Source of the DNA: an uncultured Pseudomonadota bacterium
Lineage (GTDB): Bacteria; Pseudomonadota; Alphaproteobacteria; Micropepsales; Micropepsaceae
Assembly: GCA_963710925.1 (NCBI GenBank)
Contig: CAVQBY010000001.1
Location: forward strand, 162,871-226,870
DNA length: 64,000 bases
Reading direction: 5' to 3'
Shown here: piece by piece, positions 16,078-19,058 of the stretch
Numbering within the stretch: the first letter of the stretch is position 1
Layout of the letters: each line of letters starts with the position of its first letter
The notes under the pieces: generated by a model
Seen by the model: the letters and a program-made list of their open reading frames with translations, nothing else
What the model was told of the DNA's origin: nothing
Databases searched by the model: none
Position numbers and translations under genes: made by a program

Positions 16078-16292
16078 ATGAGCGAACCTGTCGTCTGCCG
16101 CGATCCTGATGTCATGGGCGGTGCGCCCGTGTTCTGCGGCACGCGCGTGCCGGTGCAGACGCTGCTCGACTATCTTGAAGCCGGCGACACCATCGCCGAA
16201 TTCCTGGGTGGCTTCCCATCCGTGACGCGCGAACAGGTCATCGCCTTTCTCCGAAGAGGGCGAAGGACCGGCTCGTCGCCTCCGTCGCGTGA
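16078..16292 (+). CDS. DUF433 family antitoxin (3' frameshift)
   Basis: DPDVMGGAPVFCGTRVPVQTLLDYLEAGDTIAEFLGGFPSVTREQV; TGA at 16290-16292 overlaps the next GTG. Confidence 0.9.
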
Positions 16293-16342
16293 AAATCTTT
16301 CTCGACGAATGCGCGGACTGGCGCCTGTCGCGCGATCTGGCG
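16289..16342 (+). pseudogene. N-terminal stub of a DUF5615 PIN-like toxin
   Basis: GTGA overlap with DUF433; reads MKIFLDECADWRLSRDLA, then similarity ends at the stop codon of the convergent island gene. Confidence 0.75.
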
Positions 16343-17123
16343 TTACTTCTTTTTCAGGACGGACGATCTTGGCGTAATGCCGTCCCATAGACGAACGATC
16401 TGACGGCATGCTCCGCGGATAGCTCGGATGCGCGCGACGTGGTCTGTGGCGGGTCCGATTATTTCTCCGAGGCGGATATCTGTGACGAAACACAAGGCGC
16501 GATCAGGCAAACCAAGCGGCGGGTCTTGTTCTTCGAGGAGCATCTGGAGCAGCGCGACGAGATAGTGCCCCATTTCGCGCCGGTGATCGCCGCGCCGGCG
16601 CCGTGTCTCTTCGAGTTGCACGCGTCGGGGTCAGGTGCTTTTGCAACTCTGATGATGCCAGCACCGATCCGTCCGCGCGGACCATCCCTCAGCACGTCGG
16701 GGCGAACCGATACGGTCACGCCTTCGATGTCGAGGTCATCAAATTTGCCCGGGCTTCGAAGGGCCATTGAGCGCATTCCAATAGCGTTCTCACATCGCTG
16801 GAAGAGTTCGATGGCTTCCCGGCAACGCCTCGCCTCGTCCCGCCCCCTTGGGGTGAGTTGGACGTCTTCCGACTTGTCGGTTAATGCGGCCTTAACCCGC
16901 TCCAGTGCCGACTGGTCCCGATGCGATCCGCGTTGTAGGCACGGAGGGCGCGCATCGCGTCTGCGTTGGCCGTGACGATCGACGGCTGGGAGTAGCGGCA
17001 ATCGTGCAGAATTGCTTCCTGCCGATCAGGCTGCAAGATGAGGTATTCGGCCAGAGCTGTCGCGGAAACCCTTGGTTTCCGCCGCTCGCGCACGGAAGGA
17101 TGAAGGACAGGGGAAGCGGACAT
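16343..17123 (-). CDS. Hypothetical protein of about 260 aa, possible PD-(D/E)xK-like fold (two frameshifts)
   Basis: Join of ORFs 16881..17153, 16459..17001 and 16343..16621: KPRVSATALAEYL...LDIEGVTVSVRPDVL...RIGAGIIRVAK...LCFVTDIRLG...ACRQIVRLWDGI. Confidence 0.7.
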
Positions 17124-17380
17124 GGAAGCGGACCTTTCGATCACATTGGACAATCACCGGACGTTATGGCTGACAGAAATATCTCGGGCGGCCTATGAAG
17201 AGCAGGCGCTCGAGGGGCTCGGAAGCGACGGCGGGATATTCGTCGTGCTCGAGGACACGTCCGCCGGAAAGTACGAGGTCTTGGGTGAAGGCCGCTTCAG
17301 CATGCGCGGGAGAGGTCCTCTTGGATCTCTTCGCGGGCGCATTTTTTAAGAGCGTACCGGCGCTCAGCCTCGTGAAATAA
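17122..17380 (+). CDS. Small hypothetical protein of about 85 aa (frameshift near 17285)
   Basis: MEADLSITLDNHRTLWLTEIS...GIFVVLED...YEVL joined to KAASACAGEVLLDLF...; purine-rich RBS. Confidence 0.6.
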
Positions 17381-17395
17381 ATGTTGGTCGAGGCC

Positions 17396-17446
17396 TAACT
17401 CATTGAAACGAATCGTCGTTTTTGTTTTTTCGAGATGAATGACTTA
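17396..17446. repeat. Imperfect inverted repeat downstream of the tRNA-like gene
   Basis: TAACTCATTGA ... TGAATGACTTA (9/11 complementary) around a T-rich spacer. Confidence 0.5.
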
Positions 17447-17459
17447 CTGGCTTGACATT

Positions 17460-17556
17460 TGGCGTGCCCAAGGCGAGACTCGAACTCGCACGGATGTGTT
17501 CCCAACTATCCGCCCTGCTGTAAACAGGGTGTGTCTACCGGTTCCACCACTCGGGC
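17460..17556 (-). tRNA. Atypical class II tRNA: Leu-type body, UAC (Val) anticodon
   Basis: GCCCGAG TG GTGGAACCGGTAGACAC A CCCTG TTTACAG CAGGG C GGATAGTTGGGAACACATCC GT GCGAG TTCGAGT CTCGC CTTGGGC A CGCCA; acceptor, D, anticodon and T stems all pair. Confidence 0.85.
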
Positions 17557-17606
17557 CCAAGGCGCCGCCGCTCGTCGGCGGCGTTCTTGTTTTTCGGCCA
17601 ACCCCG

Positions 17607-18024
17607 TCAAGGGGGACCGTCTATGAAACTCCCGTCGTCGAGTTGGTAGCGGCCGTAGCCGATCTTCCGGAGGACGCGCCGCGAGGCTGTGCTCCCGCTA
17701 AGGTAGGTGAGGGCGTTGTATACGCTCTTCTTATCTGTCGGCACGCCTCGCTTATCCAGCGCTTCCAGGACTTCACTGGCGGTCCATTCCGGCCGGCGGT
17801 CATCTTTGAAAGGATCTCACGACATTCGTGAGCGCCGTGCCGCCGCGCAGTGGCGCCTTAGGCTCAACGGATTGCCGGTACAGTTGGACTAGCGCTGCTT
17901 GGCGCTTCGCAGGCGGCAGGCCAAGGAGCGCGGTTCGCATCATTTTGACTACGAGCGCCACCTCCGGATCCTCCGAGGCGGGGACCGGTTCATTTTGCGT
18001 AGAATTTTGCGTAAACAGCCTCAT
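17607..18024 (-). CDS. Winged helix-turn-helix protein (frameshift near 17810)
   Basis: ORF 17800..18024 continues in a frame missing from the ORF track: KDDRRPEWTASEVLEALDKRGVPTDKKSVYNALTYLSGSTASRRVLRKIGYGRYQLDDGSFIDGPP*. Confidence 0.7.
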
Positions 18025-18030
18025 GCGACA

Positions 18031-18071
18031 GTCTTAACGCAGTCTGATCAAGCACGCAAGGCCAGACTGCG
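18031..18071 (-). promoter_or_regulatory. Sigma70-like promoter and palindromic operator for the wHTH gene
   Basis: TTGCGT-N17-TAAGAC ending 6 nt before the ATG; perfect 9-bp inverted repeat CGCAGTCTG (18038-46) / CAGACTGCG (18063-71). Confidence 0.6.
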
Positions 18072-18396
18072 CCACAACAACCGCAAAGGTAGCAGGCGGA
18101 ATATATGGTGTTATCTCAACGAAATCCGTCACAAATTCTAGCGCACGTGCGAACCTCGGAGATTAAGTGTGTGTTCAGACTTTGAATAACCGATTTTGAA
18201 GCGCCCTGTGCATACTCTGTGTACAGAATAGAAAAATTCATTCAGAACAGTGAATTATGGGCGATCAAGTTGAGCTCCCTGATGCGCGGAGACGTTTCAG
18301 TTTGAAAAAACTGATTCGCTTCACTATCACGGTTTGCATTCCCTCCCCCCCTTGAACTCCCCCTCCCCACACCCCATTTCCGGGTGTTGAGGATAG

Positions 18397-18411
18397 GAAC
18401 AAAAGGAGTAC
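18397..18411 (+). promoter_or_regulatory. Candidate alphaproteobacterial LexA (SOS) box
   Basis: GAAC-AAAAGGA-GTAC (GAAC-N7-GTAC) overlapping the RBS of the 18414 ORF. Confidence 0.65.
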
Positions 18412-18413
18412 AT

Positions 18414-19058
18414 ATGCACCGCCCCGATCCCCTGCTGGACCGCGAACCAACTGAATCCAAAGGATATTCCGATCCCTTCCGCTTTCCCGGCTTCGACGAC
18501 ATCGACGAGCCCGACAAGCACCTGCCGGACTTCGTCGAGTGCCGGCGGCGGCGCGGCGCGCCGGCGGCGCCCGAGCCCGCGTCCGTGCCCGAGACCGACG
18601 AGGCCGCCGCCGCCCGGCTGGCCCGCTGGGCGGAGATCACCCGCGCGGAAACCGCCGCCCATGGCGGGCTCATGCCCCTGGTCGAGGATGTGCCGCCGCC
18701 GGCGGGCGGCTGGACCCAGATCCCGCTCAAAGAGCCCATGGGCCCGCCCGCGCCGCCCGCGGCGAAAGCCGCGAACTCCCCGGATGCGGCCGAGGCCGAG
18801 CTGACCGGCGTCATCGCCGATTGCCGCATGCTGATGCGCGAGGTGGCAATGGCCTCGGCGCGGCTGACCTGCGGCCCGGACGAGCGGCTGCGTTTCATCA
18901 ATTCGGCCTGCCGCGCCGCGCACGCCGCCGCCGCGGCCGGCAAGATGGTCGCCAAGCTGCGCGCGGCCAGCGCCGGGGCCATGGAGGAGAACCGCCAGCG
19001 CATCATCGTCGAGCGGGTCGAGCGCGGTCCCGCCGCCGTCTCCGGCGGCGCCGGCTAG
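18414..19058 (+). CDS. Hypothetical protein
   Basis: AAAGGAG RBS; Pro/acidic N-half and helical C-half; host-like codon usage. Confidence 0.65.
   Translation: MHRPDPLLDREPTESKGYSDPFRFPGFDDIDEPDKHLPDFVECRRRRGAPAAPEPASVPETDEAAAARLARWAEITRAETAAHGGLMPLVEDVPPPAGGWTQIPLKEPMGPPAPPAAKAANSPDAAEAELTGVIADCRMLMREVAMASARLTCGPDERLRFINSACRAAHAAAAAGKMVAKLRAASAGAMEENRQRIIVERVERGPAAVSGGAG

What the first reader, a model, noticed from the sequence alone, without database searches (positions are those of the whole stretch)
17460..17556. Class II tRNA with leucine identity elements but a valine UAC anticodon
Seen: 7-bp acceptor GCCCGAG/CTTGGGC, D arm GTGGAACCGGTAGACAC, perfect anticodon stem CCCTG/CAGGG around a 7-nt loop TTTACAG (anticodon UAC), a variable region of about 23 nt (GGAT..GTT/AAC..ATCC), T arm GCGAG-TTCGAGT-CTCGC and A73. 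Established: tRNA-Val normally has a short variable loop; bacterial LeuRS relies on A73, A15:U48, D-loop geometry and the long arm, largely ignoring the anticodon; ValRS reads A35/C36 and A73. Inference: it could put Leu at Val codons, be dual-charged, or act outside translation. The 3' end reads A-CG-CCA rather than A-CCA, unlike the two housekeeping tRNAs in this window. UAC is one substitution from Leu UAA/UAG, so a base-call error has to be excluded.
Basis: partly seen in the sequence, partly recalled or inferred. Interest (0 to 1): 0.85.

Follow-up and report, generated by a model that had tools for sequence, protein, structure and literature searches.

The report
Transposon "key" tRNA switched to valine
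An extra tRNA gene is built like a leucine tRNA but carries a valine anticodon, and it belongs to a family of transposon-borne tRNAs whose anticodons match an odd codon in their own transposase gene, so it would likely put leucine at the rare valine codon GUA, although its partner transposase was not found in this incomplete genome.

Summary
The gene is real: minus strand, 17556-17465, a 7/5 class II cloverleaf with UAC, A73 and all listed bacterial leucine identity elements. It is not a misread host tRNA-Leu: its nearest relatives (92% and 84% identical) carry UGG. It belongs to a family of extra Leu-body tRNAs with swapped anticodons and strong stem covariation, many inside IS1595 transposons. 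Following earlier unreviewed scan notes on other genomes, I tested their 'key' idea on my own loci. In 11 of 12 scorable elements the codon at the leucine of the transposase's C-terminal RLxYxxL motif is the codon read by the element's own tRNA. GUA is this host's third-rarest sense codon, which fits a key. Against: no second UAC copy, no GUA-keyed transposase, and no IS1595 transposase or end in this 61%-complete genome were found, and no reads were available. The copy may be an orphan. The 'A-CG-CCA' tail is likely the spacer of a conserved antisense promoter, not a shifted CCA. The scan noted this family before on other DNA, with other anticodons; I found no paper on it.

The parts
17465..17556 (-). 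Class II tRNA gene, Leu-type body, anticodon UAC, A73, no encoded CCA
17520..17522 (-). Anticodon UAC (loop 17518-17524: U32 U33 U34 A35 C36 A37 G38); nearest homologues have UGG
17489..17512 (-). 24-nt variable region (GGAT/ATCC stem plus GTT/AAC), ending G47-U48
17452..17480 (+). Predicted antisense promoter: TTGACA (17452-57), 17-nt spacer, GAGACT (17475-80, inside the T arm)
   Evidence: same arrangement in 7 of 7 alphaproteobacterial-type TGG/TAC members, 0 of 42 host tRNAs; below the cut-off of the consensus scan; inferred
17561..17595 (+). GC hairpin with T tail, terminator-like on the antisense strand only; conserved in L009, L012, L130
17607..17943 (-). Winged-helix-like ORF upstream, one frameshift near 17803-17816; same gene precedes the tRNA in L009 and L012
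   Evidence: 45% over 67 aa to L012; weak AbiEi matches
17394..17446 (.). Pair of AT-rich half-sites (TAAGTCATT / AATGAGTTA) after the tRNA, shared with L009 and L012
   Evidence: 21 of 110 IS1595 loci against 17 of 400 random G000 stretches
16343..17120 (-). Downstream ORF (frameshifted) of an uncharacterised 241-260 aa family with a predicted PD-(D/E)XK nuclease-like fold; island cargo
   Evidence: best match ACE1, E 2e-4; SocB lead, 22% of one cluster

Best explanation
This is an extra leucine-body tRNA of a family carried by IS1595 transposons; it would likely be charged with leucine by the host and would read the rare valine codon GUA, likely serving, now or formerly, as the key for a transposase with GUA at an essential leucine. 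Shown: the gene, its Leu identity elements, the family, the family's place inside IS1595 elements, and the anticodon/codon match in relatives. Inferred: expression, CCA addition by the host enzyme, leucylation, decoding, derivation of this island from IS1595, and the existence of a GUA-keyed partner (unassembled, or deleted from this decayed island). An antisense RNA running from the promoter at 17452-17480 to the hairpin at 17561-17595 would keep the tRNA low (inferred).
For: Identity: A73, A15:U48, G18G19, A20a, U54:A58 and C2-G71 are all present (sequence; list from PMC9976931 section 12 and Table passage). Family: 18 Leu-body tRNAs with non-Leu anticodons, 17 with A73; 7 have an IS1595 transposase nearby. 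Terminal repeats flank the tRNA in L130, L133, L136, L165, L166 and L167, most with 8-bp target duplications. Two carrier genomes hold all five ordinary Leu tRNAs as well. Key match: 6 of 7, plus L408 found blind among 110 transposase-picked loci, plus 4 of 4 scorable viral loci = 11 of 12. None of the 34 other scorable transposases had an odd tRNA nearby. Link to this copy: L012 (84% identical, same ORF-hairpin-tRNA cassette) has an IS1595 end about 790 nt upstream, scoring 28.7 when left out of training, nearly identical to the end of L408. Two of the 6 substitutions against L009 fall in the anticodon (P about 0.01). GUA is 1.4% of Val codons and the third-rarest sense codon. A CCA-adding-family gene is present in G000.
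Against: No IS1595 transposase in G000 and no terminal repeat in the island (best 7.9 against 24-34 for true ends). No GUA-keyed transposase in 192 genus genomes or in G000. No second Leu-body UAC gene in 228 genus genomes, 300 class genomes or viral contigs. L009 and L012 show no transposase within their short flanks. The winged-helix gene was found in 0 of 123 IS1595 loci searched. L137 has the odd tRNA but an ordinary Leu codon. The two GUA codons in the island ORFs are not at Leu-only columns. U34 could also read GUG, 45% of Val codons (wobble from established knowledge), which would be costly. ValRS determinants A35, C36 and A73 are also present. All A-ending codons are rare in this host, so rarity is weak support. 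Family members are kin and not independent.
Confidence: 0.5

Rival explanations
1. Orphan relic: an IS1595 key tRNA (ancestral UGG) stranded after its transposase and ends were deleted. The UAC anticodon is drift or an escape from proline mistranslation (Val to Leu is a milder swap), and the gene is silent or nearly so.
For: No transposase or ends. UAC is a singleton. One acceptor pair has weakened to G.U compared with L009. The island's left edge looks like a deletion joint: the downstream ORF's stop abuts a short ORF after DUF433. No sense promoter was found.
Against: All stems and Leu elements are intact, and the variable arm pairs better than in L009. The antisense promoter and hairpin are kept. 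The genome is only 61% complete, while 98 of 129 genus genomes carry IS1595.
Confidence: 0.3
2. Sequencing or assembly error: the true anticodon is UGG, as in L009 and L012, or a Leu anticodon.
For: The assembly has indel-type errors: an extra base in the tRNA-Pro T loop and frameshifts in neighbouring ORFs. UAC is seen nowhere else. G000 lacks Leu(UAG).
Against: UGG to UAC needs two adjacent substitutions. Only 7 of 714 stem pairs in 42 host tRNAs are non-standard, so substitution errors are rare. The body differs from the ordinary Leu(UAG) genes of related genomes.
Confidence: 0.08
3. It is a toxin-like or non-translational RNA (an antisense-controlled addiction or defence module with the winged-helix and nuclease-like genes), as suggested for some allo-tRNAs.
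For: Predicted antisense promoter and terminator. Weak AbiEi matches for the upstream gene. Nuclease-like fold and SocB lead downstream. Allo-tRNAs lie near toxin-antitoxin genes, and some are toxic or inactive (PMC5389517).
Against: The downstream cargo differs in L009 and L012. The winged-helix gene is followed by other RNAs or small ORFs elsewhere. The codon match in relatives points to decoding. This reading does not exclude the best explanation.
Confidence: 0.08
4. It is the host's working tRNA-Val(UAC), charged by ValRS despite the long arm.
For: No other Val(UAC) in G000; A35, C36 and A73 are present.
Against: G000 also lacks the essential Asp(GUC), so absence reflects incompleteness. 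It lacks G3-C70. No such gene in 228 genus genomes. It sits on a low-GC island.
Confidence: 0.04

Closest known systems
Allo-tRNAs (Mukai et al. 2017, PMC5389517; parts 2-3 of 5 of the main text read, supplement searched)
   Same: Long variable arm, very diverse anticodons unrelated to identity, near mobile or toxin-antitoxin genes, missense suppression shown for some
   Different: Allo-tRNAs are 8/4 or 9/3 with Sec-like D arms and Ser/Ala identity (mostly G73/U73). This is a canonical 7/5 Leu-type tRNA with A73. No matched codon in a partner gene appears in the parts I read; the supplement has no occurrence of IS1595, transposase or transposon.
tRNA-ProX / ProRSx of Streptomyces and Kitasatospora (PMC10404621, abstract; PMC11415595, passages and section 18)
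   Same: Natural bacterial tRNA with the body of one amino acid and the anticodon of another; mistranslates sense codons
   Different: Pro body with a dedicated synthetase next to it, global mistranslation. Here: Leu body, host LeuRS presumed, transposon cargo, one matched codon in the transposase of relatives.
Bacterial tRNA-Leu (class II)
   Same: All listed LeuRS determinants and the class II fold
   Different: Non-Leu anticodon, U32.G38, no encoded CCA (all 42 checked host tRNAs encode it), supernumerary, mobile
IS1595-family insertion sequences with passenger genes (PF12762/PF12760; passenger concept recalled, not from a paper read)
   Same: Relatives sit between terminal repeats with 8-bp duplications beside the transposase
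   Different: This copy has neither transposase nor ends; tRNA cargo matched to a transposase codon was not found in print
Phage suppressor tRNAs with stop-codon recoding (recalled; also named in scan note e1-9706761)
   Same: A mobile element carries a tRNA to read its own recoded gene
   Different: Here one site in one gene, and sense codons as well as stops

Membership tests
Bacterial tRNA-Leu identity | A73, A15:U48, G18G19, A20a, U54:A58, long variable arm | tested here: met
   sequence, against PMC9976931 section 12
Bacterial tRNA-Leu identity | Leu anticodon (NAG, YAA) | tested here: not met
   UAC
Bacterial tRNA-Leu identity | Charged by LeuRS | not testable with these tools
   needs an assay
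Bacterial tRNA-Val | A35, C36, A73 | tested here: met
   sequence
Bacterial tRNA-Val | Class I body, G3-C70 | tested here: not met
   24-nt variable region, C3-G70; 49-51% identity to host Val tRNAs
Allo-tRNA | 8/4 or 9/3 acceptor branch; Sec-like D arm; G73/U73 | tested here: not met
   7/5 fold, Leu-type D loop, A73
tRNA-ProX | Pro body and adjacent ProRSx | tested here: not met
   47-50% identity to host Pro tRNAs; no synthetase match among the island ORFs
IS1595-borne Leu-body key tRNA (scan-defined, unpublished) | Leu body with non-Leu anticodon, A73 | tested here: met
IS1595-borne Leu-body key tRNA (scan-defined, unpublished) | Sequence and cassette kinship with IS-borne members | tested here: met
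   84% to L012, which lies inside an IS1595 end; shared trailer and antisense promoter with L130, L133, L166, L408
IS1595-borne Leu-body key tRNA (scan-defined, unpublished) | Lies between IS1595 ends with a transposase | tested here: not met
IS1595-borne Leu-body key tRNA (scan-defined, unpublished) | Partner transposase with the matching codon (GUA) at the YxxL leucine | tested here: inconclusive
   none in G000 (61% complete) or in 192 genus genomes

The most novel reading that the evidence does not exclude
IS1595 transposons gate their transposase at one conserved C-terminal leucine by recoding. Some elements use a +1 frameshift there; others carry a private Leu-charged tRNA whose anticodon co-switches with that codon (CCA, GGA, UAA/UAG, and here GUA), as interchangeable lock-and-key pairs held down by an antisense RNA. 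This gene is a live new key, active in trans, and a natural Val-to-Leu missense suppressor.
Probability: 0.3. Interest if true: 0.9.

Novelty: new variant of a known kind. Interest (0 to 1): 0.7.

Why it matters
Natural sense-codon mistranslating tRNAs in bacteria are few (allo-tRNAs, tRNA-ProX), and their purpose is open. This family offers a concrete purpose that can be tested at a single codon: a mobile element supplies leucine to its own recoded transposase. The valine version would extend the set of keys and shows an anticodon switch between near-identical bodies. It also warns that anticodon-based annotation mislabels such genes, and that IS1595 transposases may be annotated with wrong C-termini. 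The tRNAs are candidate natural missense suppressors. The value of this particular copy is limited by its missing partner.

Tried and rejected
No sequencing run was listed; this is no evidence on expression or on the base call. The metagenome scan pattern was too loose: 1 true hit (L012) among 120 loci, from 34 of 64 parts scanned, so metagenomes are poorly sampled. The GTDB-wide scan excluded A35 anticodons and could not find UAC copies. Viral scans with narrow patterns found nothing; the broad A35/Y36 scan gave 33 loci, none of this family. Plasmids: no DNA match; phages: only a 30-nt T-arm match to ordinary tRNA-Leu. The longer flank of L009 could not be fetched, and the genomes of L009 and L012 are not held, so their transposases are unknown. 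C9 against C1 (88-90% identical) is unusable as an error estimate. The pattern for canonical Pro tRNAs found nothing in 5 genomes; it was probably mis-spaced and is not used. The short ORF after DUF433 gave no Pfam match; its likeness to a DUF5615 PIN start is from recall. In the survey of 110 loci, 73 had no scorable motif (other IS1595 subgroups or truncated) and L211 was a false motif; these were dropped. L224 duplicates L130, and a second CCA transposase fragment in L133 was not counted. L248 and L264 (viral) and L131 (IS1-like element) were not scorable. Rejected: displaced CCA; missing host Leu(UAG); allo-tRNA membership; key codons in the island's own ORFs.

Full report
Observation. The feature lies on the minus strand, G1 at 17556 to A73 at 17465. 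ARAGORN calls tRNA-Val(tac); Rfam scores it 45.8 bits, E 8e-8, though the fast gathering scan missed it. Folding energy alone is unremarkable (z -1.22). The host, G000, is a 61%-complete, 66% GC alphaproteobacterial assembly, probably Rhizomicrobium (inferred from a titled record of the same genus). It has Leu CAA, CAG, GAG and TAA and Val CAC and GAC, but no Leu TAG, canonical Val TAC or Asp GTC; these gaps reflect incompleteness.

Identity. PMC9976931 (sections 12 and 14 and passages read) lists A73, A15:U48, G18G19, A20a and U54:A58 for E. coli LeuRS, with the anticodon dispensable, and A35, C36, A73 plus minor elements (G3-C70, U4-A69, G20, G45) for ValRS. The gene has every Leu element and the three main Val elements, but C3-G70 and a long arm. 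It is 57-61% identical to host Leu tRNAs and 49-51% to host Val tRNAs. Leucylation is therefore the likelier outcome; dual charging is not excluded (inference).

Nearest relatives. L009 (92%) and L012 (84%) have the same body with anticodon UGG, the same upstream winged-helix-like ORF, the same GC hairpin and the same trailer. Two of the six substitutions against L009 are in the anticodon (P about 0.01). An error from UGG would need two adjacent substitutions, in an assembly where 7 of 714 stem pairs in 42 host tRNAs are non-standard, though indel errors are evident. No reads were listed.

Family. Pattern scans gave Leu-body tRNAs with non-Leu anticodons in 8 GTDB stretches, 8 of 172 genus genomes (the reversed control pattern hit once), 2 of 301 Hyphomicrobiales genomes and viral contigs. 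Anticodons include TGG, TTA, TCC, GCC, GTC, CCA, GGA and AGA; 17 of 18 have A73. Two carriers also hold all five ordinary Leu tRNAs. Eleven members aligned show 98.6% pairing and 14 of 20 pairs with changes on both sides, 0 of 500 shuffles as high; kinship inflates this control. Seven of the 18 have an IS1595 transposase nearby, and terminal repeats, mostly with 8-bp duplications, enclose the tRNA in six.

Key test. Earlier unreviewed scan notes on other genomes proposed that such tRNAs read an odd codon at a conserved transposase leucine. I tested this on my own loci. At the third codon after Y in the C-terminal RLxYxxL motif, L130, L133 and L166 have CCA (tRNA UGG), L165 has TAA and L136 TAG (UUA; UAG by wobble, established knowledge), L167 has GGA (UCC), and L137 has an ordinary TTG: 6 of 7. 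I then took 110 genus loci by transposase score alone (30 and 80 more of its listed matches). 36 were scorable: 9 had a Leu codon, 24 an extra base with Leu in the +1 frame, 1 four extra bases, and 2 CCA. Both CCA loci carried a Leu-body UGG tRNA (one duplicate of L130, one new, L408); none of the other 34 had an odd tRNA. Six of 121 viral loci had an IS1595 transposase, and 4 of 4 scorable ones matched. Total 11 of 12. That the leucine is required for activity is inferred from conservation.

This copy. GUA is 0.93 per 1000 codons and 1.4% of Val codons in G000, like the other A-ending keys; GUG, which U34 may also read, is 45%. L012 lies about 790 nt inside an IS1595 end nearly identical to that of L408, which ties the cassette to the family. 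But the window island has no end, and G000 has no IS1595 transposase, although 98 of 129 genus genomes do. No GUA-keyed transposase was found in 192 genus genomes, and no second UAC copy in 228 genus or 300 class genomes. The winged-helix gene was in none of 123 IS loci, and the island's own GUA codons are not at Leu-only columns. So the partner is unassembled, deleted, or never existed.

3' end and control. CCA is not encoded; a CCA-adding-family gene exists. After A73 comes GTCAA at offset 8 in the window, L009, L012, L130 and L133, and at offset 7 in L166 and L408, with differing bases between. On the opposite strand this reads TTGAC(A/T), 16-17 nt, GAGA(C/T)T; 0 of 42 host tRNAs show it, nor do the 14 other odd members examined. 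A hairpin with a T tail on that strand lies just upstream of the tRNA in 4 of these 7. I infer an antisense RNA that limits the tRNA. The -10 match is only 3 of 6 (missed), and in L130 the TTGA may overlap the stop of a converging ORF. No sense promoter was found; co-transcription with the upstream ORF is assumed.

Neighbours. The upstream ORF belongs to a family of at least 153 unnamed proteins with weak AbiEi matches. The downstream ORF belongs to a 241-260 aa family without a Pfam match whose model resembles Cas4/AdnA-type nucleases. The island (about 16200-18400, GC 0.47-0.66) lies between an LD-carboxypeptidase gene and thioredoxin.

Literature. Allo-tRNAs (PMC5389517, parts 2-3 of 5 read; supplement searched) and tRNA-ProX (PMC10404621 abstract; PMC11415595 passages and section 18) are the closest published cases; PMC7609411 was seen as abstract only. 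Searches (listings only) showed no paper on IS1595-borne Leu-body tRNAs or on recoding of this motif. The library lacks most subscription journals and the IS databases, and bioRxiv supplements are closed, so prior description is not excluded.

Verdict. A real, intact, probably correctly sequenced Leu-body tRNA with a Val anticodon, from a transposon key family whose logic I confirmed on relatives but could not confirm for this copy. Key now or formerly 0.5; drifted orphan 0.3; error 0.08; toxin-like or non-translational 0.08; true Val tRNA 0.04. Novelty: new variant of a known kind. Interest 0.7.

Noticed in passing
24 IS1595 loci of the genus, e.g. L365, L375, L397, L401, L414, L436 (transposase 3' end): One extra base sits just before the conserved leucine of RLxYxxL; the +1 frame reads Leu and a basic tail, in many LTKPxTxKQKAxAFLxW, while frame 0 soon stops. 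This looks like a programmed +1 frameshift at the same position that cargo tRNAs recode. Not found in print in one search.
   Followed up: partly
L305, L136, L165 (UUA tRNAs), L167 (UCC): Ochre-type and Gly-anticodon Leu-body tRNAs encode CCA; those in L136, L165, L137 and L167 lie beside a different winged-helix gene. Their transposases stop, or carry GGA, at the key codon (L137 excepted).
   Followed up: partly
L161, L162, L163 (genus genomes), L132, L135, L164, L134: Leu-body tRNAs with GCC, GTC, CCA or AGA anticodons and no IS1595 within the fetched flanks; GCC and GTC read common codons, so the key idea does not cover them.
   Followed up: no
L131:1976-4285: Leu-body GGA tRNA inside an element with terminal repeats and an IS1-like transposase (family from recall); key codon not identified.
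   Followed up: partly
L142:872-940: Irregular tRNA-like RNA downstream of the same winged-helix gene; L143-L148 have a hairpin followed by other structured RNA or tiny ORFs in that slot.
   Followed up: no
window:16078-16345: DUF433 antitoxin-like gene followed by a 19-codon start that recalls a DUF5615 PIN toxin and is cut at the island edge; no Pfam match.
   Followed up: partly
G000 contig C9: 88-90% identical to the end of C1, with duplicate Tyr/Gly/Trp tRNAs: likely a second organism or strain in the bin.
   Followed up: partly
viral loci L240-L360: Many phage tRNAs with Leu-like D arms and GTT/G73 or TTG/G73 (23 and 9 of 75 well-paired hits); and Leu-body AAT/AAC tRNAs in L177, L193, L208.
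   Followed up: no
window:19073-19369 and 18384-19058: Two unannotated ORFs between the island and thioredoxin, without Pfam matches; part of the first has an 84% copy on contig C6.
   Followed up: no
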